From: Chloroflexota bacterium
GTDB taxonomy: Bacteria > Chloroflexota > UBA6077 > FW602-bin22 > DAOUAE01
Reading direction: 5' to 3'
NCBI GenBank assembly: GCA_034433795.1
Contig: DAOUAE010000013.1
Location: 1-64,000 of the forward strand
DNA: 64,000 nt
The notes beneath the pieces were generated by a model, which had not been told where the DNA came from, did no database searches, and saw only the letters and a program-made list of their open reading frames with translations. The stretch's first letter is position 1. Each line of letters begins with the position of its first letter. Both the position numbers and the translations under genes were made by a program. This document shows positions 30,187-64,000 of this stretch, piece by piece.

Positions 30187-33100
30187 ATGGACGAGGAGAA
30201 CGCGGTCGCCACGGTGCCGTTTATCACCAAGGTCGTTCCCCCACGGGTGCCAGCGCGCCTGCTCCACCGGCGTCGCCTCCTCGACCTCCTGCATCGCTGC
30301 ATCGACCGGCGCTGCACCGTGCTGCAGGCCGGGCCCGGCTATGGGAAGACCACCCTCCTGGCCGACTTCGCCGCCGAGGCCGACCTGCCCGTCTGCTGGT
30401 ACACCCTCGATGAGTTCGACCGCGACGGCGCTGGCTTTCTGACCTACCTTCTGGCCGCGGTCCGTCAACGGTTCCCCACGGTCGGCCGCCGCACCGCCCT
30501 GGCCCTGGCTCAAACCGCCCGCACCTCTGAGGACCTGCGGCGGATTCTGGGACTCCTGGTCACCGACCTCTACCAGGAGATCGCGGAGTACTACGTTCTC
30601 ATCCTCGACGACCTGCACACCGTCCGCGACTGCCCCGAGGTCGTCGAACTCCTCGATCTCCTGCTGGCCCGGCAGCCGGCCAACTGCCATCTGGTCCTGG
30701 CTGGGCGGACTCTCCCGCGCCTGCGGCGTCTGCCCGCTCTGGTGGCCGGCCAGGAGGCTCTCTTGCTGACCAGCCAGGACCTGGCCTTCACCCGCGCGGA
30801 GACCGAGGCCTTTCTGGTCGAGGTCCTGCAGCAGAGCGACGTCCGTCCACATATTGATCGCCTGCACGCCTGGTCTGGCGGCTGGCCGATCGCGCTGCTG
30901 CTGGCCAACCGGACCGGCTCCCCGGCCGACTCACCCCTTCTGTTCGACTATCTGGCCGGCGAGGTGCTCGAGCAGCTGGCCGCCGAGGTCCAGGCGTTCC
31001 TGCTGGCCACCAGTATCCTGCCAGAGCTGACCGCAGCGGCCTGCGATGCTCTGCTGGAGCGGACCGACAGCGGCGAGCAGCTACGCCGGCTGGCGGACCC
31101 CGGTGGTCTGGGACTGCCGCTCCAGACCACCGACCGGGGCTACCGTTATCATCCGCTCTTCCGCGAGTTCCTCCAGCGTCGGCTGCAGGCGACGGCCCCC
31201 GACTGGGCCCGGGCGCTCCACCGGCGGGCCGCAGCCCTGGCCCAGCACGCCGGTCAGGCCGACCAGGCTCTTCACCACCTGATCGCGGCCGGCGAGATCC
31301 AACCGGCCGCCGCTCTGCTGGAGCAGGTCGGTCCGGAGTGGCTGCGGACCGGTCGCTGGCGACAGTTCGTGACCTGTCTGGAGCAGTTGCCGCCGGCGGA
31401 GCGTCAGCGGCCGGGCCTCCAGCTGGTCTACGCCGCCGTCCTGCTGCGGCTGGGCCAGCCGGAGCGCGCCGGCCAGCTGGTCCAGTGCCTTCTGGACCAG
31501 CCGGAGGCCGAGCCCGCGCTGCGGTTGCGAGCCCTGGCGGTGGCCAGCGCCGCCGCCCGGCTGAGCGGTCAGTACGAGGTCGCCCGCACCCTGGCCGAGC
31601 GGGCGGTGGCGGCTCTCGATCCGGCGCTGCCCGCCAGCGTTCAGGCCGAGATCTACAAGGCCCACGGACTGGCCCTGGCCCGCCTGGGCCGGCTGGTCGA
31701 GGCCGTTCCCCCGCTCGAGCGGGCCCTGCAGCTCTTCGTCGATCTGGGTGAGACCGCGGAGGCGGCCAGCCTGCACGACGCCCTGGCCGCGGCGGCCATC
31801 CAGCAGGGGCAGATAGCGACCGCTCGTGGTCATCTTGAGCGCGCCCGGGCGATCTGGCAGACCCTGGGCAATGTGGCCGAACTCGCCCAGACGCTCAACA
31901 ACCTGGGCATGGTGTACTACTACCAGGGGGAGTTGGAGGCAGCCCGCGAGGCCTTCACCATGGCCCGGGACCAGGCCCGGGCGGCCGGCTATCAGCGGGT
32001 GGCGGCCTGCGCCGACCTCAGTCTGGGCGACGTCCTGCGCGACCTGGGGGGATTGGAGCTGGCGATGGCGGCCTATCAGCAGGGCCTGGAGACCGCCCGC
32101 CAGGCCGATGAGGCGGCGCTGGTCGGCTACGCCCTCTGCGCCCTGGCCCACGTCTTCCGGCTGAAGGGTGACCTGGACCGGGCCGAGACGCTGGCCCGGC
32201 AGGCTCTGGCCCAGGCCCAGACCACGGGCAGCCTGTTCGAGCAGGGCCTGGCCGAGATGGCGCTGGGGGCGACGCTGCTGGCCGCCCGCCGGCCCGGACC
32301 GGCGGTGGCCGTGCTTTCGGCGGCGGTCGAGCACCTGCGGACCTACGGGGCCCTCCCAGAGCTGAGCCAGGCCCTGCTCTTTCTGGCTCAGGCCAGCCAG
32401 CTGCGGGGGAAGGGCGAGGGACGGGCGGCCCGCCAGGCCCTGCGGGAGGTCGCCGACCTGCTGGATCGTCTGGGGATCTGCGGCCATCTCCTGGCGCTGG
32501 TCGTGCAGAACCCCCTCCTGCTCAAGCGGGCTCAGGCGGTGGCTCCGCAGAGCCGGGGGCTGCGTGAACTGGCCGAGCGGGCCAAGACCTTCCGGGCGCT
32601 GACCGCCCCGCCGGCCATCATCCGGCCGGGCCCCGCGCGCTGGCCTCGCATCGAGGCGTTCACTCTCGGGTATGCGCGGGTGCTGCGCGACGGTGTCGAG
32701 GTCACCGAGAGCCAGTGGAAGCGCAGCAAGAGCAAAGAGCTCTTCTTCTACCTGCTCTGGCATCGCCAGTGGCAGAGCGAGGAGGCGATCATCACCGCCC
32801 TCTGGCCCGATGTCGACCCGGAGCGCGCCCATAGCCGTTTCCACTCGAGCCTCTACCAGTTGCGACGGGCCCTCTACGATGACTGCCTGATCCGCGATGG
32901 CAGCTTCTACCGGCTCAATCCCGAAGGGGAGTTCTGGTGCGACGCGGTGGAGTTCTTGCGGTTGTGCGAGGGCGCCCGCACCGACCGGGAGTCCACCTAT
33001 GAGCGGGCGCTGGCCCTGTATCAGGGACCTTTCCTCCGCGATTACTACGCCGAGTGGTGTGAAGAGCCCCGACGCGTGCTGGAGCAGCACTATCTGCGCG

Positions 33101-37249: not shown

Positions 37250-37425
37250 CAGAAAACCGGAGGCAGTAGCCTCCGGTCCGACCGCTGACGCTACGCCTCT
37301 TTCAAATGCCTACGAGGTTAGCTGACGGGCTCGGGCTGAAAGAGCCTACCCTATCCCTGACCGGGAATTCGCCCCAACCGACTGGGTCCCCCGTTCCCCG
37401 CGGTGCGGGGATTCGGCTCTCTTCA
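37250..37425 (-). ncRNA. c-di-AMP riboswitch (ydaO/kimA class) with intrinsic terminator expression platform
   Basis: Minus strand reads GCCGAAUCCCCGCACCGCGGGGAACGGGGGACCCAGUCGGUUGGGGCGAAUUCCCGGUCAGGGAUAGGGUAGGCUCUUUCAGCCCGAGCCCGUCAGCUAACCUCGUAGGCAUUUGAAAGAGGCG. It has the pseudo-twofold ydaO layout and conserved blocks (GCCGAAUCC, ACGGGG(G)ACCCA, GGGG-GAAUUCC, CCCG-CCCG-CAGCUAAC). Terminator CCGGAGGCUACUGCCUCCGG-UUUUCUGUU ends ~20 nt before the RBS of DarA paralogue 1. Confidence 0.65.
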
Positions 37426-37441
37426 CTTGTCGGCCTGGAGT

Positions 37442-42309: not shown

Positions 42310-43902
42310 TCAGGGCTGGACGCCGGCGCGGTGGCCGTTGCGGCTGTGGACCAGGAAGTACTCCAGACTGTCGGCCAGGGCTAGCCAGCTGGCCTCGATG
42401 ATGTTGGTCGAGCTGCCCACGGTCGTCCAGGTGCGCTCGCCATCGGTGGATTCGATCAGCACCCGCACCCGGGCGGCGGTGCCGGTCTCGCCGTCCAGCA
42501 CCCGGACTTTGTAGTCGGTCAGCTGGACCCGCCCGACCTCCGGGTAGAACCCCCGCAGCGCCTTACGCAGGGCCGAGTCGAGGGCGTGGACCGGGCCGTT
42601 GCCCTCGGCCGCCGTGTGCATCACCTGGTCACCCACCCGGACCTTGACCGTGGCCTCGGCCATCAGCACGCCGTCGCTCGCCCGCTGCACCACCACCAGA
42701 AAGTGCAGGAGCTCAAAGGGAGCACGGTACGCCGGCTGAGAGCGGCGCAGGAGCAGTTCGAACGAGGCCTCGGCCGCGTCGAACTGGAAGCCCTGGTGCT
42801 CCAGCCGCTTGATCTCCTCGGTCAGCCGGCGGGCCTCGGCCTCGTTGTCGCTGAGGTCGATGCCCAGCTGGCGCGCTTTGGCCAGGATATTGCTCCGGCC
42901 GCTCAGCTCCGAGACCAGAATGCGCTGCCGGTTGCCCACCAGGGCCGGTGGGATATGTTCGAAACTGGCTGCGGTCTTGAGAACGGCGTTGACGTGCAGA
43001 CCGGCCTTGTGGGCGAAGGCGCTGGCGCCCACATAGGGCAGATGACTGGGGTGGGCGACGTTGGCCACCTCGGCCACGAACCGGGAGACCTCGGTGAGTT
43101 TGGCCAGTTGTTCGTCGCTGATGCAGTCGATCTTTAACTTGAGTTTGAGATTGGGGATCACCGAGCAGAGGTTGGCGTTGCCCACCCGTTCGCCGTAGCC
43201 GTTGATCGTGCCCTGGACGTGCGTCGCCCCGGCCTCGACGGCCACGAGGGTGTTGGCCACCGCCAGTTCGGCATCGTTATGGGTATGGATGCCGATGGGC
43301 GTCCGGAACTCCTGGACGACCCGGGCGACGATCGCCCGCACGTCGCTGGGGAGCGACCCCCCATTGGTATCACAGAGCACCAGCCAGTCGGCTCCTCCCT
43401 CGGCGGCCGCCCGCAGGGTGGCCAGCGCGTACTCCGGGTCCGCGCGGAAGCCGTCGAAGAAGTGCTCGGCGTCGTAGACGACCTCCAGGCCGTGGCGCTT
43501 GAGGTAGGCCACCGAATCGCGGATCATGCGCAGGTTCTCCTCGCGCGTCGTCCGCAGCACTTCGGTGACGTGGAGGACCCAGCTCTTGCCGACGACGGCC
43601 ACAACCGGCGTCCCGGCCAGGACCACTTCGTTCAGAATCGGATCGTTTTCCGCGGCGACGCCGGCCCGGCGGGTGCTGCCGAAGGCGGCCAGTTTGGCGT
43701 GCCGCAGGCGGAGTTCGCTGCGGGCTCGCCGGAAGAACTCGCTGTCCTTCGGGTTGGCCCCTGGCCAGCCGCCTTCGATATAGTGAATACCCAGTTCGTC
43801 CAGCTTCCGGGCGATTTTGAACTTGTCCTCCAGCGAGAGGGAGATTCCTTCGTGCTGGGCGCCGTCCCGAAGCGTCGTATCGTAGATCACGACCCGCGGC
43901 AT
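42310..43902 (-). CDS. cimA: (R)-citramalate synthase (LeuA-family, CimA-type)
   Basis: MPRVVIYDTTLRDGAQHEGISLSLEDKFKIARKLDELGIHYIEGGWP N-terminus plus C-terminal LeuA-dimerisation domain. It lies in the ilv-leu operon next to a separate canonical leuA. Second ATG chosen (RBS GGGAGGGAT). Confidence 0.75.
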   Translation of the reverse strand: MPRVVIYDTTLRDGAQHEGISLSLEDKFKIARKLDELGIHYIEGGWPGANPKDSEFFRRARSELRLRHAKLAAFGSTRRAGVAAENDPILNEVVLAGTPVVAVVGKSWVLHVTEVLRTTREENLRMIRDSVAYLKRHGLEVVYDAEHFFDGFRADPEYALATLRAAAEGGADWLVLCDTNGGSLPSDVRAIVARVVQEFRTPIGIHTHNDAELAVANTLVAVEAGATHVQGTINGYGERVGNANLCSVIPNLKLKLKIDCISDEQLAKLTEVSRFVAEVANVAHPSHLPYVGASAFAHKAGLHVNAVLKTAASFEHIPPALVGNRQRILVSELSGRSNILAKARQLGIDLSDNEAEARRLTEEIKRLEHQGFQFDAAEASFELLLRRSQPAYRAPFELLHFLVVVQRASDGVLMAEATVKVRVGDQVMHTAAEGNGPVHALDSALRKALRGFYPEVGRVQLTDYKVRVLDGETGTAARVRVLIESTDGERTWTTVGSSTNIIEASWLALADSLEYFLVHSRNGHRAGVQP

Positions 43903-43925
43903 CATATCCCTCCCTGGAGCCGGTC

Positions 43926-45008
43926 TCAGGCGCGGGCGACCTCGGCGGCGATGAGGTCCCCCATCTGGCGTGTCCCCACCTGGGTCGCTCCGGCCTCCAT
44001 TATATCGTAGGTCCGATAGCCGGCCGCGAGCACCCGCTCGACCGCCCCCTCAATGGCGGCCGCCTCCGGCTCCAGCCCCAGGCTGTAGCGCAGGAGCAGG
44101 GCGGCGCTCAGGATGGCGGCGATCGGGTTGGCCCGGTCCTGGCCGGCGTGACGCGGCGCCGAGCCGTGGATCGGCTCGTAGAGGCCCAGCCGGCCCTCGG
44201 CCAGGCTGGCCGAGGGCAGCAGTCCCATCGATCCGGCCAGCACAGCCGCCTCGTCGGTCAGGATATCACCAAAGGTGTTCTCGGTGACGATGACATCGAA
44301 CGCCCGGGGCTGGCGGACCAGCCGCATCGCGGCGGCGTCGACGAACATGTGCTCCATTTCGATATCGGGGTAGTCGCGGGCCACCTCCTGAGCCACCTCG
44401 CGCCAGAGGCGCGAGGTCGCGAGGACGTTGGCCTTGTCCACCGAGGTCACCTTGCGCCGACGCCGGCGGGCCAGTTCGCAGGCCACCCGTACCACCCGCG
44501 CGATCTCGTGCTCGGTGTAGAACATCGTGTCCACGGCCTCGCGCCCGTTCGGCGTCACCCGCCGTTCGCTGGGGCGGCCGAAGTAGAGCCCGCCGGTGAG
44601 TTCGCGGACGACGATGAGATCGACCCCGGCGACGACCTCGGGCTTGAGGGTCGAGGCGCTGACCAGCGCCGGAAAGAGTCTCACCGGGCGCAGGTTGGCG
44701 TAGAGGCCCAGCCCTTTGCGCAGGGCCAGCAGCCCCTGCTCCGGCCGCACCGGCGCCGTCGGGTCCTCGTCGTAGCGCGGATGGCCCACCGCCCCCAGCA
44801 GGATGGCCTGGCTCGCCCGGCAGAGCGCCAGCGTCTCCGCCGGCAGGGGCTCGCCGGTCGCTTCGATGGCCGCGGCGCCGATCAGCCCCTCACGGAACTC
44901 GAAGCGGTGGCCGAAGCGCTCGCCCACCGCCTGCAGCACTTTCACCGCCTCAGCGGTCACATCAACACCGATGCCGTCGCCGGGTAAGACGGCGATCTGG
45001 TACGCCAT
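43926..45008 (-). CDS. leuB: 3-isopropylmalate dehydrogenase
   Basis: [17 protein letters not shown]...NLFGDILSD-like core. 360 aa. Confidence 0.9.
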
Positions 45009-45050
45009 TCCCCCTCCTCAGGGCTGCGATCCTGGTTTACCGGTGCGTTC

Positions 45051-46589
45051 TCAGAGGACGGCCTGGCTCTGACGGGTCATCTCCCGGCTGGCCAGGGCGC
45101 GGTTCAGAGCGTTCACATAGGCCCGGGCGCTGGCCACGATGATGTCGGTGTTGGCCCCGTGGCCGGAGAAGATGCGGTCGTCGCACTGGACCCGCACCGT
45201 CACCTCGCCGATAGCGTCGATGCCCGCCGTCACCGAGTGGACCGAGTACTCGATAAGCTTGCTGGGCAGCTGGACGATCCGGTCGATGGCCTTGTAGGTG
45301 GCGTCGACCGGGCCGGTCCCGGTGGCCGTCTCGACCCGAACCTGACCATCGGGGGTGACCATTTTAACCGTGGCCGTCGGGATGCTGTGGTCGCCGCAGC
45401 AGACCTGGACGTGCTCCAGCCGGTAGTACTCCTGGGGACCGCGCACCTCGTCCGCCACCAGCGCCTCCAGGTCGCGGTCGGTGATCTCCTTCTTCTTATC
45501 GGCCAGCTCTTTGAAGCGCATAAAGGCGCGGTTGAGGTCCTCCGGGCTCAGGTGGTAGCCCAGTTCCTCGAGCCGGGTCTTGAAGGCGTGGCGGCCGCTG
45601 TGCTTGCCCAGGACCAGCGTGCTCTTGACCAGGCCGATGCTGCGCGCGTCCATAATCTCGTAGGTCGTCCGCTCCTTGAGCACCCCGTCCTGGTGGATGC
45701 CGCTCTCGTGAGCGAAGGCGTTGGCCCCGACAATCGCCTTGTTGGGCTGGACCACCAGGCCGGTCCGGTTCGAAACCAGGCGGCTGGTCCGATAGATCTG
45801 CGTGGTGTCGATGTTCGTGGTAACCCTGTAGATATCCTGGCGCGTCTTGAGCGCCATCACGATCTCCTCGAGGGCGGCGTTCCCCGCCCGCTCGCCGATG
45901 CCGTTGATCGTACACTCGACCTGACGCGCCCCGGCCAGGATCGCCGCCAGGCTGTTGGCGGTGGCCAGTCCCAGATCGTTGTGGCAGTGGACGGAGAGGA
46001 CGACTTTTTCGATGCCGCGAACGCGCTGCCGGATCTGGCGGATGAGTTCGGCGAACTCGTCGGGAGTGGCGTAGCCGACGGTATCGGGGATGTTGACCGT
46101 GGTGGCCCCGGCGGCGATGGCCACCTCCAGCATCCGGAAGAGGTACTCGGGATCGGCGCGGGTGGCGTCCATCGGGGAGAACTCGACGTCGCTCACGTAG
46201 CTCTTGGCCCGGCGGACCATCGCGTCGGTGATCTCGAGCACCTCTTCACGGGTCTTGCGCAGCTGGTGCTTGAGGTGGATGTCTGAGGCCGAGATAAAGG
46301 TGTGGATGCGGGGCGACTCGGCCTCGCGCAGGGCCTCCCAGGCCCGGTCGATGTCCGCCGGCACCGCCCGGGCCAGCGCACAGATCTTGGTCGTCCGGAC
46401 CTCGCGGGCGATCCGGCGCACCGCCTCGAAGTCGCCGGGCGAGGCGACCGGGAAGCCCGCCTCGATCACGTCCACCCCCAGCCGGGCCAGTTGATGGGCG
46501 ATCTCGACCTTCTCCTCCACGTGCAGGCTCGCCCCTGGCGACTGCTCACCGTCACGCAGCGTCGTGTCGAAAATAAGAACCCGATCCAT
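45051..46589 (-). CDS. leuA: 2-isopropylmalate synthase
   Basis: [64 protein letters not shown]-terminal regulatory domain. 512 aa. Confidence 0.9.
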
Positions 46590-46629
46590 CTGCCTGCTTC
46601 CCTCCCGTCTGCCGCTGGCCGGCCTCCCG

Positions 46630-47628
<999 letters not shown>

Positions 47629-47660
47629 CGTCACTCCTCTCCACTCCGATCTGGCGCCGG

Positions 47661-48194
47661 CTACTCCCCGGCGGCCCGCAGGCGGGGCCGGGTCTCCTCG
47701 CCGAAGGTCGTCACCCCGCTCTGGCCGCGGACCATGGCCACCGGCCCGGTGCGGACCATCTCTTTGATGCCAAAGCCCCGCAGCAAATTCACCAGGGCGT
47801 CGATCTTGTCCTCCGTCCCGGTGACCTCGACGATGAGCGAGTCGGCGGCCACGTCCACAATGTGCCCGCGGAACATCGAGACGATCTGGACGATCTCGCT
47901 CCGGGTCTGGCGGGTGGCGGTGACCTTGATCAGCGCCAGCTCCCGCAGCACCGTCGGATCGTGGGTGACGTCGCTGACCTTCAGCACGTTGATGATCTTG
48001 TAGAGTTGCTTGACCACCTGCTCGATGTCGGTGGCCGTGCTGTCCACCACCAGCGTCAGGCGCGAGATGTCCGGTTGCTCGGTGTGGCCGACGGTCAGAG
48101 TGTCGATGTTGAAGGCCCGCCGGCTGAACAGATTGACCACCCGTTGCAGAACACCGGGGCGGTCCTCCAAGAGCGCGACCAAGACGTGCTTCAT
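47661..48194 (-). CDS. ilvN: acetolactate synthase small (regulatory) subunit
   Basis: ACT-domain protein [36 protein letters not shown]. 177 aa. Confidence 0.85.
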
Positions 48195-48218: not shown

Positions 48219-49958
48219 TCAGTCGCGCAGGGCCGGGTCGAGCAGCATCTCCTGGATCGTGCCACCCGAGGGGATCATCGGGTAGACGTTCTCCTCGGAC
48301 TCGACGATGCAGTCCACCAGCACCGGCCCGCTGTATTCCTGGGCCTCGCGCAGGACCGTGTCGCACTCCTCCTTGGTGCGGAGGCGCAGGCCACGAATGC
48401 CGAAGGCCTCGGCGATCTTGACGTAGTCCGGCGAGCCCAGGTAGGCCGCCGAGTAGCGACGGTTGTAGAAGAGCTCCTGCCACTGGCGGATCATGCCGAG
48501 GTAGGCGTTATTGATAATGGCGATCTTGACCGGGATCTGCTCCTGGGCGATGGTTCCCAGTTCCTGCATGGTCATCAGGAAGCCGCCGTCGCCGACGATG
48601 GCCCAGACCGTCTCGTCGGGCCTGGCGACCTTGGCCCCGATGGCCGCCGGAACGCCGTAGCCCATCGCCCCCAGACCGCCGGAGCTGATGAAACTGTTGG
48701 GCTTGTCGTACCACCAGTGCTGGGCCGCCCACATCTGGTGCTGACCGACGTCGGTCACCACGATGGCATCGCCCCCGGTGATCTCGTAGAGCTTCCGGAT
48801 AACGTACTGCGGCAGCAGTTTGTCGGTCTCGCGGATGACGGTGAGCGGCATCTTGCGCCGCCACTCCCAGATCTGCGCCAGCCAGTCGCGGTGGTTGCCC
48901 GGCTGGACGGCCTTGATCAGTTCGCGCAGCACCAGTTTGGCGTCGCCGACGATGGGCACGGTGGCCTTGACGTTCTTGCCGATCTCCGCCGGGTCGATGT
49001 CGATGTGAATGACCTTGGCCTTGGGGGCGAAGGCCTCGACCTTGCCGGTGATCCGGTCGTCGAAGCGCATGCCGATGGCGATGATGAGGTCCGATTCGTG
49101 GATGGCCAGATTGGAGTAGGCGGCACCGTGCATCCCCGGCATCGCCAGGCTGAGCTCGTGCGACTCCGGAAAGGCCCCCAGCCCGAGCAGGGTACAGATG
49201 ACGGGGATGTCCGTCTTCTCGGCGAACTCGCGCAGCTCAGCCTCAGCCCCCGAGATCAGCACCCCATGGCCCGCCAGGATGACCGGCCGCTGGGCCTGGG
49301 CGATGAGTTCGGCCGCCGCGCGGATCTGGCGGGCGTTGCCGTGCAGTGTCGGTTTGTAGCCGGGCAGATTCACCGTCTCGGGGTACTCGAACCACGTCTC
49401 TTTGAGAAAGATATCTTTCGGGATGTCGACGAGTACCGGGCCGGGCCGGCCCGTCCGGGCGATGTGGAAGGCCTCCTTAAGGACGCGGGCCAGGTCCTCG
49501 ACCCGCGTCACCAGGTAGTTGTGCTTGGTGATGGGCATGGTGATGCCCGTGATGTCGGTCTCCTGGAAGGCATCCCGGCCGATAGCGGTCGTGGGCACGT
49601 TCCCGGTGATGGCCACGATCGGCACCGAGTCCATCATGGCGCAGGCGATACCGGTCACCAGGTTGGTCGCCCCCGGGCCGGAGGTGGCCAGGCAGACCCC
49701 GACCTGCCGGGAGGCCCGGGCGTAGCCGTCGGCGGCGTGGGCCGCCGCCTGCTCGTGGCGCACCAGGATGTGCCGGATGGGGTACTCCGGCAGGACGTGA
49801 TAGAGCGGCAGAACCACCCCGCCGGGGTGTCCGAAGATCACCTGGACCCCTTCGCGGATCAGGCACTCGCAGACAATGCGGGCTCCGCTCAGTTTCCGTG
49901 GCTCGTCCTTGCGCGGCTCCTCCGAGGCCGCCGACCGCGTCGCCGGATGGATCGCCAT
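48219..49958 (-). CDS. ilvB: acetolactate synthase large subunit
   Basis: ThDP-binding motif GDGGFLMTMQELGT, FAD region. Start ATG 49956-49958 (RBS GGGAGGTGG) rather than the track ATG 13 codons upstream. Confidence 0.9.
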   Translation of the reverse strand: MAIHPATRSAASEEPRKDEPRKLSGARIVCECLIREGVQVIFGHPGGVVLPLYHVLPEYPIRHILVRHEQAAAHAADGYARASRQVGVCLATSGPGATNLVTGIACAMMDSVPIVAITGNVPTTAIGRDAFQETDITGITMPITKHNYLVTRVEDLARVLKEAFHIARTGRPGPVLVDIPKDIFLKETWFEYPETVNLPGYKPTLHGNARQIRAAAELIAQAQRPVILAGHGVLISGAEAELREFAEKTDIPVICTLLGLGAFPESHELSLAMPGMHGAAYSNLAIHESDLIIAIGMRFDDRITGKVEAFAPKAKVIHIDIDPAEIGKNVKATVPIVGDAKLVLRELIKAVQPGNHRDWLAQIWEWRRKMPLTVIRETDKLLPQYVIRKLYEITGGDAIVVTDVGQHQMWAAQHWWYDKPNSFISSGGLGAMGYGVPAAIGAKVARPDETVWAIVGDGGFLMTMQELGTIAQEQIPVKIAIINNAYLGMIRQWQELFYNRRYSAAYLGSPDYVKIAEAFGIRGLRLRTKEECDTVLREAQEYSGPVLVDCIVESEENVYPMIPSGGTIQEMLLDPALRD

Positions 49959-49974
49959 CTGTCCACCTCCCACA

Positions 49975-50345
49975 TAACGAAAAGGCTCTCGTCCCAAGGG
50001 ACGAGAGCCGCCGCTGCTCCCGCGGTACCACCCTTATTGATGGGGCCAGAGGAGGACCGCTCCACCCGATCAAAAATCCCGTCCCGGTGAGGGACGGGAT
50101 AAACCGGATCCCGCGGTACCACCCTGCCTTGATGGGGCCCTGACCCCATCCACTCTGGGCGCTCTATCGGGCGCCAGGCGACAGAGACCTACTGAGCGAC
50201 CGCCGTTCGGTCCCGTTGCTCCGGGGCGAGTTCCGGGAGGCCCCACCACCGGGCTCGCACCTTCCCCCGGCTCTCTGCCGGCGGGCCGATCCCGTACTAC
50301 TCCCCATCAACGCAACGCCGTATGCGGTTGTGCTGGTCGGAGTTT
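49975..50345 (-). promoter_or_regulatory. T-box riboswitch leader of the ilv-leu-cimA operon (putative Leu CUC specifier), with duplicated T-box/terminator module
   Basis: Minus strand holds two T-box consensus sequences: AAGGCAGGGUGGUACCGCGG (rev-comp of 50111-50130) and AUAAGGGUGGUACCGCGG (rev-comp of 50021-50040). Each is followed by an intrinsic terminator (AUCCCGUCCC-UCACC-GGGACGGGAU-UUUUG; GGCUCUCGUCCC-UUG-GGGACGAGAGCC-UUUUCG). Upstream Stem-I-like region shows AGUAGUAC, AGAGAG and GGAACUCGCC (CUC followed by G). Confidence 0.7.
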
Positions 50346-50531
50346 TACCAGAAGCGGGCGGTATTGTCAAGCCCGAAAATCGCGGCCGGTTTGCCGTGGA
50401 GCGCGTCTTTCCGCCGGCGACCGCTTGGCCCGTCGGGCGCTCAGCTTTGAGGACCCGGGCGAGGAGCGGCGGGCTCTGCTATAGTAGCCTCCAGGGATGT
50501 CCGGGCTTTCGACCGGCGTGGAGGAGGTCAT

Positions 50532-52571
50532 ATGACCTGCGCGACCGTTCTCTGCCCCGGAGTGGCGCTCCAGGTCCTCGTCTACGGTCTCACCAACGGC
50601 GCGATCATCGCCCTGATGGCTCTGGGCTTCACCCTGGCCTACAGTGCCGTGCGGACGGTCAACTTCGCCTATGGCGATCTGTTCGCCCTGACCACCGTTC
50701 TGGTGGCACTGCTCATCGGCCGGCTCGGCCTGACCCCGGAGAGCCCCTGGGGAGCGCTCCTCGCCGGTCTCGGCGCCGCCCTCGGCCTGGCGCTGCTCTT
50801 CGGGGCGCTGCTCAACACGGTGGTGGAGCACGCCGCTTTTCGTCCCTTTGCGGCCGGCGCGCCCTCGGCACCGCTCATCGCCAGCGTCGGCCTCTCGTTC
50901 GTCCTTTATCAGGGCGCCCTCTGGCTGCGCCTGGTCCTGCCGGAGACGGCGGCGGGGACCTTTCGACCGCACCATGGAGCGCCGGAGGTTCCCCGTTTAG
51001 CCGTCCCGGACCTTCTGCCGACGGCCGATCTCCTCGGTTCAGTCGCACCCACGCTCGGGGTTACGTATACGGTTAAAGATGCGGTGGTCGTGCTGCTGGC
51101 GACGGGGCTGGCCCTGGGGGTCGACCGCTTTCTGGCGCGAACGGCCATCGGCCGGGCGCTGCGGGCCAGCGCCCAGCATCCCACACTGGCCTGGCTCTGC
51201 GGCGTCGCGCCACGCCAGGCGGCGCGCTGGGCTTTCGCGCTGGGCGGTCTCCTCGCCGGCGCGGCGGCTTTTCTCTTCGTCCTCTACTATAACGGCGTCT
51301 ACGGTCAACACGGGGCGCTCAGTGGTCTGGCGGCGTTCACGGCGGCCGCTCTGGGTGGACTGGGCCGCCCGCGCGGCGCTCTCGTCGGCGGACTGCTGCT
51401 GGGACTGCTCGCGGCGGCGAGCGATTACCTGCTGGCTCCCCGCTGGACCCCGGTCCTCACCCTCACCCTGCTGGTGGTTCTCATGGTTTGGCGCCGACCC
51501 GATCCGGCGGAGGTCGCTGAGCCCCCGCCAGGCCCGCCTCCGCCGGGTGGCGTTCCGGGAGGACGCTGGGTGGCCGCCGGCCTTCTGGTCGCTGGCCTGA
51601 TCTATCCCCTGCTCGACACCGTCCTGGGGTTGCGTCTGCAGGTGACGGTGGTCAGCCTGCTGCTCCTGGCCCTGCTGGCGGGAGGATTGAATCTGCTCTT
51701 CAGTCTGGCCGGGCTCATCGATCTGGGCTACGCCGCCTTTTTCGCCGTCGGCGGCTACACAGCGGCCCTGCTGGCGCCGGCGCTGTGGCGGTGGACCCGT
51801 TCCCTGTTTCTGCTCGACGAAGTGGTGATCGTCCTGATCCTGGGCGCGGGTGTCACTGCTCTGATCGGGGCGGTGGTCAGCGCCCCCGTCCTGCGGCTGC
51901 GCCGCGACGATCTGGCGATCGCCACCCTGGCTTTCGGCGAGATCGTGCCGCGTCTTCTCCTGAATCTCGACGAGTGGACCGGTGGTCCACGGGGGATCGC
52001 TGCCGTTCCGCTGCCGCGTCTGCTGGGCTGGGAACTGGCGACTCCTATCGCCTGGCACTACCTGGTTCTGACGCTCGTCGTGCTGACCGGGGTGGCGAGC
52101 CAGCGGCTGGCAGTCTCGCGGCTGGGCCGCGCCTGGAGGGCCGGTGGGCAGGATGAAGTGGCGGCGGCCAGTTGCGGGGTCGCCCTGGTGCAGAGCAAGC
52201 TCCTGGCCTTCGCGTTGAGTGCCGGTGTCGCCGGTCTGGCGGGGGCCCTCTTTGCGCGCCTCTTCGGCTATGTCGAGCCCGGCCACTTCGATTTCACCGT
52301 CTCGGCGATGGTGCTGGCGACGGTCGTTGTCGGCGGCGGCCGGGCTGGCCCCGGCCCGCTCCTGGGAGCGCTCCTTATCGGCGGCTACGACCGGCTGGCT
52401 CTCCCCCTTCTTGAGGCCGGACTGGGGCGGTTCGGAGCGGTCGCCGGCCTCTCTCTCCCGCCGGCGCCGGATCTGCGGGCCTTGAACTTTCTCGTCTTCG
52501 GGCTCGCTCTCTACCTTACGGTCCTCTGGCGGGCCGGCCCTATCCGGACCCACCGGACGGGCGAGGGGTGA
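50532..52571 (+). CDS. branched-chain amino acid ABC transporter permease, fused LivH-LivM
   Basis: 679 aa. N-terminal half is LivH-like (GFTLAYSAVRTVNFAYGD). C-terminal half is LivM-like (GLIDLGYAAFFAVGGYTAALL). RBS GGAGGAGG. No ATPase or SBP genes adjacent. Confidence 0.8.
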   Translation: MTCATVLCPGVALQVLVYGLTNGAIIALMALGFTLAYSAVRTVNFAYGDLFALTTVLVALLIGRLGLTPESPWGALLAGLGAALGLALLFGALLNTVVEHAAFRPFAAGAPSAPLIASVGLSFVLYQGALWLRLVLPETAAGTFRPHHGAPEVPRLAVPDLLPTADLLGSVAPTLGVTYTVKDAVVVLLATGLALGVDRFLARTAIGRALRASAQHPTLAWLCGVAPRQAARWAFALGGLLAGAAAFLFVLYYNGVYGQHGALSGLAAFTAAALGGLGRPRGALVGGLLLGLLAAASDYLLAPRWTPVLTLTLLVVLMVWRRPDPAEVAEPPPGPPPPGGVPGGRWVAAGLLVAGLIYPLLDTVLGLRLQVTVVSLLLLALLAGGLNLLFSLAGLIDLGYAAFFAVGGYTAALLAPALWRWTRSLFLLDEVVIVLILGAGVTALIGAVVSAPVLRLRRDDLAIATLAFGEIVPRLLLNLDEWTGGPRGIAAVPLPRLLGWELATPIAWHYLVLTLVVLTGVASQRLAVSRLGRAWRAGGQDEVAAASCGVALVQSKLLAFALSAGVAGLAGALFARLFGYVEPGHFDFTVSAMVLATVVVGGGRAGPGPLLGALLIGGYDRLALPLLEAGLGRFGAVAGLSLPPAPDLRALNFLVFGLALYLTVLWRAGPIRTHRTGEG

Positions 52572-63275: not shown

Positions 63276-63484
63276 GCGCTGGCCTGGGCTGGTTATCGAA
63301 GGGGGACGTCGGCTGGTCTGTCAGGGCCGGGGGTGAGAGCGGTTGGGGCGACTGCCTGGGGGTGGGAGAGGGTACCTCCGGCTCGGTGGAGCCAGCTTTG
63401 CGAGGTGTCGCTCGCTGGTTGCAGGGCAGGTGGTGGGCTTGACGGCCTGATGGGGGCTGGGCTATACTTAAAGACGCAGCGGAT

Positions 63485-63570
63485 GCGGGTGTGGCGGAAT
63501 TGGTAGACGCGCCAGCTTGAGGGGCTGTTGGGAGATCTCTCCCGTGGAGGTTCGAGTCCTCTCACCCGCA
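63485..63570 (+). tRNA. tRNA-Leu (anticodon GAG)
   Basis: Cloverleaf folded by hand. Acceptor GCGGGTG/CACCCGC, anticodon loop UUGAGGG, long variable arm, T-loop GGTTCGAGTCC, discriminator A. CCA not encoded. Confidence 0.85.
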
Positions 63571-63579
63571 CCCGGTCGA

Positions 63580-63651
63580 GCGGAAGTGGCTCAGTGGTAG
63601 AGCGTCTCCTTGCCAAGGAGAAGGTCGCGGGTTCGAATCCCGTCTTCCGCT
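63580..63651 (+). tRNA. tRNA-Gly (anticodon GCC)
   Basis: Acceptor GCGGAAG/CTTCCGC, anticodon stem TCTCC/GGAGA with loop TTGCCAA, T-loop GGTTCGAATCC, discriminator T. Confidence 0.85.
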
Positions 63652-63658
63652 CCCCTGT

Positions 63659-63732
63659 GGCGACGTAGCCAAGTGGTTTAAGGCGGAGGTCTGCAAAACC
63701 TCTATTCGGCGGTTCGAATCCGCCCGTCGCCT
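63659..63732 (+). tRNA. tRNA-Cys (anticodon GCA)
   Basis: Acceptor GGCGACG/CGTCGCC, anticodon stem GAGGT/ACCTC with loop CTGCAAA, T-loop GGTTCGAATCC, discriminator T. Confidence 0.85.
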
Positions 63733-63750
63733 CCGCCCGTGTGGCTGGTC

Positions 63751-63778
63751 GACCCCGTGAATGCGGGGTCGTTTTTTT
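63751..63778 (+). terminator. intrinsic terminator after tRNA cluster
   Basis: GACCCCG-tgaat-GCGGGGTC followed by GTTTTTTTCT. Confidence 0.55.
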
Positions 63779-63925
63779 CTGGGGGTGTTTCCTGTGGGGC
63801 GGAGAGAGGGTGAGTGGGCCGTGGGATTGGGGGTGGCGGAGTTGCACGGGCGATGGGCGACGCGGTATGCTTTAGACGCGGCGTGGGGTGGTAGGTTGCG
63901 GGGCGTGGCTCTTCGATTTTGACAG

Positions 63926-64000
63926 GCCGAAGTGGCGGAACGGCAGACGCGGCGGTCTCAAAAACCGCTGGGGGCGACCCCGTGGGGGTTCGAATCCCCC
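63926..64000 (+). tRNA. tRNA-Leu (anticodon CAA), 3' end truncated by window
   Basis: Acceptor GCCGAAG, anticodon stem GCGGT/ACCGC with loop CTCAAAA, long variable arm, T-arm GGGGGTTCGAATCCCCC. Window ends before the 3' acceptor strand. Confidence 0.7.

What the first reader, a model, noticed from the sequence alone, without database searches (positions are those of the whole stretch)
49975..50345. T-box leader of the ilvB-ilvN-ilvC-leuA-leuB-cimA operon contains two T-box/terminator modules in series
Two copies of the T-box consensus (AGGGUGGUACCGCGG) occur on the minus strand 90 nt apart, each followed by its own GC-rich terminator hairpin with a U tract. Only the upstream copy is preceded by a recognisable Stem-I-like region (AGUAGUAC, AGAGAG, putative specifier GGAACUCG, i.e. 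CUC Leu followed by G). Only ~50 nt separate terminator 1 from T-box 2. The second module therefore looks like a duplicated antiterminator/terminator without its own specifier domain. This is either a degenerate tandem T-box or a two-step attenuation device. The UGGU bulge predicts pairing to a tRNA with discriminator A, consistent with Leu, Ile or Val.
Basis: seen in the sequence. Interest (0 to 1): 0.5.

Follow-up and report, generated by a model that had tools for sequence, protein, structure and literature searches.

The report
Leucine T-box with two serial terminators
The leader of this Chloroflexota branched-chain amino acid operon is a tRNA-sensing T-box with one tRNA-Leu decoding domain and two successive stop/go modules, an arrangement already noted in the literature whose mechanism is still unknown.

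Summary
On the minus strand, 50319-50087 is a full-length T-box (RF00230, 84.5 bits, below the gathering score of 93; specifier CUC, Leu). It ends in antiterminator/terminator 1. Ninety-one nt downstream lies a second exact copy of AGGGUGGUACCGCGGGA with its own antiterminator and terminator. Rfam matches this copy only over the Stem III/antiterminator part of the model, and there is no room for a second Stem I. The operon is ilvB-ilvN-ilvC-leuA-leuB-cimA. A tRNA-Leu(GAG) gene with discriminator A73 lies in the same window.

This is not a decaying duplicate. Eleven other Chloroflexota ilv leaders (IlvB 52-68% identical) share the layout of one Stem I and two modules. Module 2 is orthologous across them, and its antiterminator helices show compensatory changes. 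Six closer relatives have a single module. The same layout recurs in Firmicutes, with up to four modules.

Best reading: a two-checkpoint T-box in which both terminators must be overridden by an uncharged tRNA 3' end, giving tighter and sharper control by leucine. Module 2 usually lacks the 5' purine string of a complete discriminator, so it probably depends on the tRNA anchored by the single Stem I. A 2020 review states that partially tandem T-boxes exist and that their mode of action is unknown, so this is a new member of a known kind.

The parts
50342..50370 (-). Promoter-like site: TTGACA (50370-50365), 17-nt spacer, TAAAAC (50347-50342).
   Evidence: Read directly from the sequence. The consensus scan did not report it because the last base of the -10 hexamer is C. 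Relatives have TTGAC(A/T)-17-TA(T/G)A(A/G)T at the same position ahead of Stem I. This part is inferred, not shown.
50087..50319 (-). Complete T-box riboswitch: Stem I with K-turn, specifier loop, AGAGAG and GGUGCGA distal motifs, Stem II region, Stem III and antiterminator 1.
   Evidence: RF00230 full-length hit, model 1-219, 84.5 bits (gathering score 93), E 6.8e-19.
50228..50230 (-). Specifier codon CUC (Leu) in GGAA-CUC-G.
   Evidence: Rfam alignment of the specifier loop. GAACUCGCCCC is conserved in most related leaders, and one relative has GAACUCACCCC. It matches the anticodon GAG of the tRNA-Leu gene in the window.
50129..50155 (-). Module 1 Stem III with its flanks: purine string GAGUG, hairpin GAUGGGGU/GCCCCAUC, and 3' AA.
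   Evidence: Fold of -14.0 kcal/mol, z -2.87. The motif matches the 5'-RRRxG-Stem III-AA-3' pattern described in PMC7583486.
50090..50125 (-). Antiterminator 1: A1 AGGG/CCCU, bulge UGGUACC, A2 GCGGGAU/AUCCCGU with G.U at its base.
50071..50100 (-). Terminator 1: 10-bp stem AUCCCGUCCC/GGGACGGGAU followed by UUUUUG.
   Evidence: -19.4 kcal/mol, z -4.5.
50037..50073 (-). Spacer with an irregular hairpin (candidate Stem III'): GAU-C-GGG...GCCC-C-AUC followed by AA. There is no 5' purine string, because the U-tract of terminator 1 occupies that position.
   Evidence: Fold of -13.5 kcal/mol but z only -1.15. The 3' strand plus AA is identical to module 1. The alignment of the two modules has 78% mean column identity.
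49996..50035 (-). Antiterminator 2: A1 AAGGG/CCCUU, bulge UGGUACC, A2 GCGGGAGC/GCUCUCGU with G.U at its base.
   Evidence: Partial RF00230 hit at 50067-49997. The helices are conserved with compensatory changes in 12 leaders.
49980..50009 (-). Terminator 2: 11-bp stem GGCUCUCGUCC/GGACGAGAGCC followed by UUUUCGUU.
   Evidence: -22.8 kcal/mol, z -6.4. The 5' strand GGCUCUCGUCCC is identical in L212 and L044.
48219..49970 (-). RBS GGAGG (49970-49966) and ilvB (ATG at 49958, ends 48219).
   Evidence: NCBIfam TIGR00118, 829 bits. The exact protein is found on metagenome contigs.
42310..48194 (-). Rest of the regulated operon: ilvN 47661-48194, ilvC 46630-47634, leuA 45051-46589, leuB 43926-45008, cimA 42310-43905.
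   Evidence: NCBIfam equivalogs above their cut-offs.
63484..63573 (+). Gene for the presumed ligand, tRNA-Leu(GAG), with discriminator A73.
   Evidence: ARAGORN, Rfam and the sequence itself.

Best explanation
The leader is a 'partially tandem' T-box riboswitch. It has one tRNA-decoding domain (Stem I/II with the Leu codon CUC) followed by two expression platforms in series. Each platform has a T-box bulge (UGGUACC), an antiterminator and an intrinsic terminator.

Proposed course of events:
1. Transcription starts near 50335.
2. tRNA-Leu(GAG) docks on Stem I.
3. If the tRNA is uncharged, its ACCA end pairs with UGGU of module 1 and holds antiterminator 1, so RNA polymerase passes terminator 1.
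4. About 90 nt later the same decision is taken again at module 2. Terminator 2 forms unless an uncharged ACCA end stabilises antiterminator 2.

Operon expression therefore needs two successive positive read-outs. This should lower basal read-through and make the response to tRNA-Leu charging steeper.

What is shown: the anatomy, the single Stem I, the structural conservation and covariation of module 2, and the finding that terminator 2 is not automatically disabled when module 1 is in the antiterminator form.

What is inferred: that module 2 binds a tRNA 3' end at all. A further inference concerns which tRNA it binds. I judge it about 0.4 likely to be the tRNA-Leu still anchored on the single Stem I, released from module 1 once terminator 1 folds behind the polymerase. 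I judge a second, free uncharged tRNA about 0.25 likely. The reason for this preference is that module 2 lacks both a Stem I and the 5' purine string of a complete discriminator.
For: - One full and one 3'-only RF00230 hit in the window.
- Both modules have canonical A1/bulge/A2 antiterminators and terminators.
- Eleven further Chloroflexota ilv leaders have one CUC Stem I plus two modules. Nine came from the pattern scan and two from an IlvB-based sample that was not selected on the repeat (L210, L212).
- Rfam finds exactly one full T-box per leader in 9 such loci.
- The module 2 antiterminator is 93.9% paired over 12 leaders. Its A1 helix and A2 core are 100% paired, 5 pairs carry changes on both sides, and 0 of 500 shuffles reach the observed value.
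- Module 1 resembles module 1 of other genomes, and module 2 resembles module 2 of other genomes, more than either resembles its own partner. The duplication is therefore old and both copies have been kept.
- With module 1 locked as antiterminator, terminator 2 still forms in the minimum-free-energy fold in 7 of 8 leaders.
- The cognate tRNA-Leu(GAG) has A73.
- Module 2 keeps the 3' AA flank (12/12) but mostly lacks the 5' purine string (3/12, against 11/12 in module 1).
- Published background: the discriminator needs Stem III and its purine flanks to bind tRNA (PMC7583486).
Against: - There is no experimental evidence for this or any partially tandem T-box, and a review states their mode of action is unknown.
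- Nine of the eleven other double leaders were found with a pattern that required both T-box cores to be intact. Conservation of the core itself is therefore partly ascertainment, and only L210, L212 and the window are free of it.
- Six of eight informative close relatives manage with a single module, so the second module is dispensable.
- Stem III' of module 2 is weak and irregular (z -1.15) and its 5' purine string is absent. By published criteria this should weaken tRNA binding.
- tRNA locked on an antiterminator is reported to be immobilised (Grundy & Henkin 2004, as cited in PMC7583486). This argues against rapid hand-over of the same tRNA.
Confidence: 0.65

Rival explanations
1. Module 2 is an autonomous, Stem I-less sensor. 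It captures a second, free uncharged tRNA with A73 (not necessarily tRNA-Leu), so the operon integrates leucine-specific starvation at module 1 with general uncharged-tRNA load at module 2.
For: - The discriminator domain is described as necessary and sufficient to sense aminoacylation (PMC7583486).
- The module 2 bulge UGGU pairs with any A73-CCA end.
- tRNA locked on module 1 is reported to be immobile.
- Terminator 2 is not relieved by module 1 alone.
Against: - Module 2 usually lacks the 5' RRRxG purine string and has a poor Stem III. Without Stem III the antiterminator does not bind tRNA appreciably.
- Leaders with 3-4 modules would then need 3-4 independent captures within seconds.
- The variable bulge base of module 2 tracks that of module 1 across families: U/U, C/C, A/A, or C then U, which remains compatible with G73. 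Shared ancestry could also explain this.
Confidence: 0.25
2. Module 2 is a non-functional or merely constitutive remnant of a tandem duplication. Terminator 2 only adds a fixed attenuation step, or does nothing, and the T-box 2 sequence is not used.
For: - Six of eight informative close relatives have no second module.
- Some second modules look impaired: L035 has no U-tract after terminator 2, and L077 has a poor terminator 2.
- Conservation of the T-box core in the pattern-derived loci is partly due to ascertainment.
Against: - Module 2 is orthologous across lineages with only 52-68% IlvB identity, yet keeps A1/A2 pairing through compensatory changes and keeps a terminator.
- The two double leaders found without reference to the repeat (L210, L212) both have intact second T-boxes.
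- No clearly decayed copy was seen among the single-module leaders. Five have only about 30-50 nt between terminator and start codon, and L215 has about 90 nt with no T-box.
- A fixed terminator would reduce induced and basal expression equally, with no regulatory gain.
Confidence: 0.08
3. Relay without a second tRNA. When antiterminator 1 is held by tRNA, the unpaired 3' strand of terminator 1 (GGGACGGG) pairs with the 5' strand of terminator 2 (CUCGUCCC). The first decision is thereby passed on to the second terminator.
For: The two terminators share the GUCCC/GGGAC core, so 8 bp of cross-pairing is possible in the window. In L210 the constrained minimum-free-energy fold shows exactly this pairing.
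Against: - In 7 of 8 leaders, including the window, terminator 2 still forms in the constrained fold.
- The relay does not explain why the 7-nt bulge UGGUACC and the AA flank of module 2 are kept.
Confidence: 0.05

Closest known systems
Canonical single T-box leader (Rfam RF00230), e.g. the Bacillus subtilis ilv-leu leader with a CUC specifier (Marta et al. 1996, cited in PMC2494555)
   Same: Stem I with K-turn, the specifier CUC and distal motifs. Stem III, a T-box bulge pairing with the tRNA NCCA end, and competing antiterminator and terminator structures. It controls an ilv-leu operon in response to tRNA-Leu.
   Different: This leader carries a second Stem III'/antiterminator/terminator unit after the first terminator. 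The host is a Chloroflexota bacterium with high G+C content, and the Rfam score is just under the gathering threshold (84.5 against 93).
Fully tandem T-boxes (two or three complete T-boxes in series, e.g. thrS/thrZ, trp and ilv operons of Bacillota; PMC12452182)
   Same: Several terminators in series must each be overridden. The proposed purpose is a sharper, more digital response.
   Different: In fully tandem T-boxes each unit has its own Stem I and specifier and binds its own tRNA. Here there is one Stem I for two platforms, and the 91-nt spacing leaves no room for a second decoding domain.
'Partially tandem T-boxes', mentioned as an open question in Zhang 2020, WIREs RNA (PMC7583486)
   Same: This is the category that the locus belongs to: part of the T-box is duplicated in tandem.
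   Different: In the papers I could read, the category is named without description, distribution or mechanism. This work adds three observations. The duplicated unit runs from Stem III to the U-tract. It keeps the AA flank but usually loses the 5' purine string. It recurs in Chloroflexota ilv leaders and in many Firmicutes leaders with 2-4 modules.
Leader-peptide attenuators of the ilv and leu operons in Proteobacteria
   Same: Premature termination in the leader is relieved when charged branched-chain tRNAs are scarce.
   Different: Those attenuators sense through ribosome stalling on a leader peptide, not through direct tRNA-RNA pairing, and they are not homologous.

Membership tests
T-box leader (RF00230) | Covariance-model match over the full model at or above the curated gathering score. 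| tested here: inconclusive
   The match is full length (1-219), 84.5 bits, E 6.8e-19 in the local search, but the gathering score is 93 and a whole-window search at the gathering threshold does not list it. Homologous leaders score 92-105 bits (L028, L210).
T-box leader (RF00230) | Stem I with a specifier loop presenting a codon followed by a purine, plus the K-turn and distal AGAGA / GGUGNRA motifs. | tested here: met
   GGAA-CUC-G, UGAUGGGGAGUAGUA, AGAGAG and GGUGCGA align to the consensus. The specifier context is conserved in relatives.
T-box leader (RF00230) | A T-box sequence forming an antiterminator (A1, 7-nt bulge UGGNACC, A2) that competes with an intrinsic terminator. | tested here: met
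   Met for both modules.
T-box leader (RF00230) | A cognate tRNA whose anticodon matches the specifier and whose discriminator base matches the bulge. | tested here: met
   tRNA-Leu(GAG) with A73 at 63484-63573, matching CUC and UGGU.
T-box leader (RF00230) | tRNA-dependent antitermination. | not testable with these tools
   This needs in vitro transcription or in vivo reporters.
Partially tandem T-box | One decoding domain (Stem I) followed by two or more antiterminator/terminator units in one leader. | tested here: met
   There is one full and one partial (model 163-216) Rfam hit. The 91-nt spacing leaves about 40 nt between terminator 1 and T-box 2. The same holds in 9 related or analogous loci.
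Complete T-box discriminator domain (Li et al. 2019, as summarised in PMC7583486), applied to module 2 | 7-nt bulge, helices A1 and A2, and a G.U pair at the base of A2. | tested here: met
   In the window: UGGUACC, A1 5 bp, A2 8 bp, and G50023.U50001. Across relatives the base pair of A2 is G.U in 6, A-U in 3 and G-C in 3.
Complete T-box discriminator domain (Li et al. 2019, as summarised in PMC7583486), applied to module 2 | Stem III directly upstream with a 3' AA flank. | tested here: inconclusive
   The AA flank is present (12/12 in module 2). The hairpin is irregular, its z-score is -1.15, and its structure is not conserved among relatives.
Complete T-box discriminator domain (Li et al. 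2019, as summarised in PMC7583486), applied to module 2 | A 5' RRRxG purine string before Stem III. | tested here: not met
   In the window, UUUUUG (the terminator 1 U-tract) occupies that position. A GAGCG does occur, but inside the spacer hairpin. A RAGYR motif is present in 3/12 of module 2 against 11/12 of module 1 in the ilv set, and in 12/37 against 26/37 in other leaders.

The most novel reading that the evidence does not exclude
The second module is not an independent sensor. It re-queries the same Stem I-anchored tRNA.

After the polymerase clears terminator 1, the more stable terminator 1 hairpin folds and expels the tRNA 3' end. The 5' strand of module 1's Stem III, with its purine string (AGAGUG-GAUGGGG), then re-pairs with the identical downstream copy of the 3' strand (CCCCAUC-AA). 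This loops out module 1 and rebuilds a complete discriminator around T-box 2.

Chains of 2-4 such units would form a kinetic-proofreading, multi-sampling device that reads the charging state of one bound tRNA several times. If this is correct, it would be the first mechanism proposed for partially tandem T-boxes.
Probability: 0.15. Interest if true: 0.7.

Novelty: new member of a known kind. Interest (0 to 1): 0.4.

Why it matters
T-boxes are a well-understood example of one RNA reading another. Their partially tandem variants are nevertheless listed as unexplained (PMC7583486).

This locus, its eleven Chloroflexota counterparts and the Firmicutes examples with 2-4 modules give a defined set of natural sequences on which three questions can be tested:
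- Can a discriminator work without its own Stem I and purine string?
- Can one anchored tRNA serve several expression platforms?
- What does serial checking add to the response curve?

There are also practical consequences. Rfam-based censuses can either miss these high-G+C leaders, which score below the gathering threshold, or may count partial modules as complete tandem T-boxes. For this organism, the finding only means that branched-chain amino acid synthesis is under tight leucine-tRNA control.

Tried and rejected
1. Metagenome scan with IlvB (L126-L205). The 80 loci were 53-61% identical homologues. None has a T-box directly upstream of ilvB. Seven have an isolated core match 1.2-2.9 kb upstream that I did not follow up. 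The scan was uninformative for leader evolution.
2. Single-fold explanation. I tested whether the second T-box is just part of one antiterminator. It is rejected, because each copy has its own 3' partner strand and its own terminator.
3. Relay via the free 3' strand of terminator 1. Rejected as a general mechanism, because terminator 2 still forms in 7 of 8 constrained folds.
4. A hidden second specifier or mini Stem I in the 40-nt spacer, for example a Val or Ile codon in a hairpin loop. No hairpin or codon is conserved across the spacers, and there is too little room (reading).
5. Stem III strand-swap test. The upstream region of module 1 pairs with the module 2 3' strand as well as with its own (-9.1 against -9.4 kcal/mol) and better than module 2's own spacer does. 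However, cross-locus controls are nearly as good (-8.2), and shared ancestry is a confound. The test is inconclusive.
6. Literature. Vitreschak 2008, Gutierrez-Preciado 2009 and Suddala & Zhang 2019 could not be read. I therefore could not check how they describe partial duplications.
7. The whole-leader minimum-free-energy fold pairs the Stem I base with the module 2 CCCCAUCAA. I treated this as a thermodynamic artefact of the repeated GAUGGGG/CCCCAUC motifs.

Full report
**1. What is in the sequence**

All features are on the minus strand. The 575-nt gap lies between a divergently transcribed branched-chain amino acid permease gene (plus strand, from 50532) and ilvB (ATG at 49958). It contains the following, in order.

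- A promoter-like site, TTGACA-17-TAAAAC (50370-50342). I read this by eye; the consensus scan did not report it.
- A full-length match to the T-box model RF00230 at 50319-50087. It scores 84.5 bits, E 6.8e-19 in the local search, under the gathering score of 93, and a whole-window run at the gathering threshold does not list it.
- The Rfam alignment places the K-turn region, AGUAGUA, AGAGAG, GGUGCGA and the specifier loop GGAA-CUC-G. CUC (Leu) is at 50230-50228.
- Module 1 follows:
  - purine string GAGUG;
  - Stem III (GAUGGGGU/GCCCCAUC, -14.0 kcal/mol);
  - AA flank;
  - T-box AGGGUGGUACCGCGGGA (50125-50109);
  - antiterminator helices A1 AGGG/CCCU and A2 GCGGGAU/AUCCCGU;
  - terminator 1 (50100-50076 plus UUUUU, -19.4 kcal/mol).
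- Directly after the U-tract the unit repeats as module 2:
  - GAUCGGG...GGCCCCAUC-AA;
  - the same 17-mer (50034-50018);
  - A1 AAGGG/CCCUU and A2 GCGGGAGC/GCUCUCGU;
  - terminator 2 (50009-49984 plus UUUU, -22.8 kcal/mol).
- Then come GGAGG and the ilvB start codon.

Rfam sees the second unit only as a partial hit to model positions 163-216, that is Stem III plus antiterminator (23.1 bits). The 17-mer occurs nowhere else in the window. The two units align with 78% mean column identity, apart from an insertion in the second Stem III loop.

The downstream genes are ilvB, ilvN, ilvC, leuA, leuB and cimA. A tRNA-Leu(GAG) gene with discriminator A73 lies at 63484-63573. It matches both the CUC specifier and the UGGU bulge.

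**2. Origin and relatives**

The IlvB protein is found unchanged on several metagenome contigs. Its nearest named relatives (72-75% identical) are annotated as Chloroflexota.

I scanned one genome per bacterial species for two T-box cores 60-90 nt apart. Of the 119 stretches returned, roughly half are coding repeats in actinomycetes and myxobacteria. The other half are genuine leaders with terminators after each core.

Ten of the genuine hits lie in front of ilvB-ilvN-ilvC-leuA homologues, or ilvD-ilvB homologues (52-66% IlvB identity). Most are Chloroflexota MAGs. L084 is nearly identical to L033 and was dropped, which leaves nine.

In the leaders I read in full, there is one Stem I with GAACUCGCCCC, then T-box 1 and terminator 1, a spacer of about 40-50 nt, then T-box 2 and terminator 2. 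L077 and L075 carry the tandem upstream of ilvD.

I also took a sample that did not depend on the repeat, using leaders of IlvB homologues picked by protein identity alone.
- Six have a single module: L206, L207, L208, L209, L211 and L215 (68-75% identity).
- Two have a double module: L210 and L212 (68% identity).
- Three have ilvD upstream, which puts the leader out of reach.

The double arrangement is therefore recurrent but not universal. The window's closest relatives are single.

**3. Is the second module maintained or decaying?**

Across the 12 double ilv leaders, both modules form canonical antiterminators and, with two exceptions, terminators.
- L035 has no U-tract after terminator 2.
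- L077 has a poor terminator 2.

On an alignment of the twelve second modules, the antiterminator I specified is 93.9% paired. A1 and the A2 core are 100% paired. Five pairs carry changes on both sides, for example GCGGGA/UCCCGC against ACGAGA/UCUCGU. No shuffle out of 500 reaches the observed covariation, and versions of the structure slid by a few columns fall to 45-65% paired.

Outside the invariant core, module 1 is most similar to module 1 of other genomes, and module 2 to module 2 of other genomes. Each is less similar to its own partner (0.62-0.71). The exceptions are L210 and L074, where the copies resemble each other. The terminator 2 5' strand GGCUCUCGUCCC is identical in the window, L212 and L044.

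The duplication is therefore old. The two copies have stayed distinct, and module 2 has kept its structure over a divergence of 52-68% IlvB identity.

One caveat applies. Nine of the eleven other doubles were found with a pattern that demanded both cores, so conservation of the 12-nt core in them is ascertainment. The helices, terminators and AA flank were not part of the pattern.

In the window itself, a 31-nt stretch from the Stem III 3' strand to the A2 5' strand is identical between the modules. Relatives have ACGAGAG in module 2 at the A2 position. This looks like a local homogenisation, and it leaves two G.U pairs in A2 of module 2.

**4. The arrangement is widespread**

The same layout occurs in many Firmicutes, with spacing of 75-102 nt and 2-4 modules. 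It regulates the following genes:
- an SNF/NSS-family transporter in the Bacillus cereus group, Lysinibacillus and Paenibacillus (3-4 nearly identical modules);
- Liv-type ABC transporter components in Dialister and Lachnospiraceae;
- DAHP synthase in Alicyclobacillaceae;
- trpE;
- class-V aminotransferases;
- aspartate-semialdehyde dehydrogenase;
- a family-5 solute-binding protein.

In nine loci tested with Rfam, there is exactly one full-length T-box per leader, ending at the first module. Later modules give only weak or partial hits.

**5. Anatomy of the second module against the published discriminator**

According to Zhang's 2020 review, the aminoacylation-sensing 'discriminator' consists of 5'-RRRxG, Stem III, AA, and then the antiterminator with a G.U pair at the base of A2. 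An antiterminator without Stem III does not bind tRNA appreciably (PMC7583486).

Module 1 of the window has all of these features. Module 2 compares as follows.
- It has the bulge, A1 and A2.
- It has the G.U pair at the base of A2.
- It has the AA flank.
- Its Stem III is irregular (z -1.15).
- The terminator 1 U-tract sits where the purine string should be.

Counts across leaders:

| Feature | Module 1, ilv set | Module 2, ilv set | Module 1, other leaders | Module 2, other leaders |
|---|---|---|---|---|
| 3' AA flank | 10/12 | 12/12 | 31/37 | 33/37 |
| RAGYR purine motif | 11/12 | 3/12 | 26/37 | 12/37 |

The duplicated unit is thus typically a truncated discriminator. It keeps the 3' strand of Stem III, the AA flank, the T-box and the terminator.

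**6. How it most likely works**

The conserved bulge, AA flank and compensated helices argue that module 2 still pairs with a tRNA 3' end. When module 1 is constrained to the antiterminator form, terminator 2 still forms in the minimum-free-energy fold in 7 of 8 leaders. Passing terminator 1 does not by itself disable terminator 2.

The best-supported model is therefore two checkpoints in series, both needing an uncharged ACCA end. Such a design lowers leak and steepens the response. It also fits the fact that it can be gained or lost without abolishing regulation.

Which tRNA serves module 2 is not settled. I favour the tRNA-Leu held by the single Stem I, for three reasons.
- Module 2 has neither its own Stem I nor a purine string.
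- Chains of 3-4 modules would otherwise need 3-4 independent captures.
- The variable bulge base of module 2 follows that of module 1 across families (U/U, C/C, A/A, or C then U, which still pairs with G73). Shared ancestry could also explain this.

Against this view, tRNA locked on an antiterminator is reported to be immobile. Hand-over would require terminator 1 (-19.4 against about -12 kcal/mol for antiterminator 1) to displace the 3' end once the polymerase has moved on.

A more specific idea is a Stem III strand swap. The module 1 5' strand with its purine string would re-pair with the identical downstream 3' strand. This is possible in the window, L060, L044, L212 and several Firmicutes. 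It is not possible in L028, L035 or L077, and the energy test against cross-locus controls was inconclusive.

**7. Comparison with what is known, and novelty**

The decoding part is an ordinary Leu T-box. It uses the same CUC specifier as the Bacillus subtilis ilv-leu leader (Marta et al. 1996, cited in PMC2494555).

Fully tandem T-boxes, each unit with its own Stem I, are well documented, including for ilv genes (PMC12452182).

'Partially tandem T-boxes' are named in the 2020 review with the remark that their modes of action remain unknown. I found no later paper in the searchable library that addresses them. Two key comparative papers could not be read.

The locus is therefore a new member of a known but unexplained variant. 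The class-level observations made here (unit boundaries, loss of the purine string, retention of the AA flank, old orthologous second modules in Chloroflexota) may be new, but they are computational only.

**8. Verdict**

- Interest is moderate (0.4). A specialist would not be surprised that such a leader exists. However, the locus and its relatives make an acknowledged open question directly testable.

Noticed in passing
window 37292-37428 (-): A strong c-di-AMP riboswitch (ydaO/yuaA class, RF00379): 97.7 bits against a gathering score of 38, full length.
   Followed up: no
window 50532-52571 (+): Divergently transcribed from the T-box leader is a 679-aa ORF with a branched-chain amino acid ABC permease domain (BPD_transp_2). 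On one metagenome copy (L121) the same stretch is called as two genes of 355 and 324 aa. This is either a LivH-LivM fusion or a frameshift difference between the two assemblies. No T-box was found on its strand within 49900-50500.
   Followed up: partly
window 63484-64000 (+) and 31310-31387 (+): A tRNA cluster Leu(GAG)-Gly(GCC)-Cys(GCA), plus a further long-arm tRNA cut by the window end (63926-64000). A tRNA-Arg(GCG) at 31310 is called by ARAGORN but is not listed by Rfam at the gathering threshold.
   Followed up: no
L206, L207, L208, L209, L211, L215 (single-module ilv leaders of close relatives): The variable base of the T-box bulge is C, U, C, A, C and A in these six single-module leaders. 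It is U in both modules of all 12 double leaders. C or A would not pair with the usual A73 of tRNA-Leu. This could reflect phylogeny, or a need for the fourth base pair in double leaders.
   Followed up: no
L037 1110-1340, L065, L051, L038, L069, L076, L105, L113, L116: Bacillus cereus group, Lysinibacillus and Paenibacillus carry 3-4 nearly identical T-box/terminator modules at an 87-91 nt period, behind one Stem I and ahead of an SNF/NSS-family transporter gene. The spacers share a conserved CUUGUUGU...UUCAUAACUAGGG and lack the 5' strand of Stem III.
   Followed up: partly
L027, L032, L066, L093, L100, L114, L118: In these leaders module 1 has bulge UGGC and module 2 has UGGU. L066, L093, L114 and L118 share near-identical T-box cores, and L066 precedes a class-V (serC-like) aminotransferase gene. 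L027 precedes a DAHP synthase gene. Both bulges can pair with a G73 tRNA, the second by a G.U wobble. A systematically weaker second checkpoint is possible.
   Followed up: no
L035 3314-3397; L077 5868-5951 (-): Two Chloroflexota second modules look impaired as terminators. L035 has a strong hairpin but no U-tract after it. L077 has a good A2 helix but only a weak terminator. These may be early stages of loss, or a different read-out.
   Followed up: no
L060 (labelled Sphingomonadaceae MAG) and L074 (labelled uncultured actinobacterium): These contigs carry Chloroflexota-like ilv operons (63-64% IlvB identity to the window) with the double T-box leader. The contigs may be mis-binned.
   Followed up: no
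window 50302-50314 versus 50125-50137 and 50037-50047: The 5' base of Stem I (GCGUUGAUGGGG) is complementary to the CCCCAUCAA(GGCA) that follows Stem III in module 1, and partly to the same motif in module 2. The whole-leader minimum-free-energy fold uses this pairing. L060 shows a similar GUUGAUG/CAUCAAC complementarity. I treated it as a by-product of the repeated motif and did not test it.
   Followed up: partly
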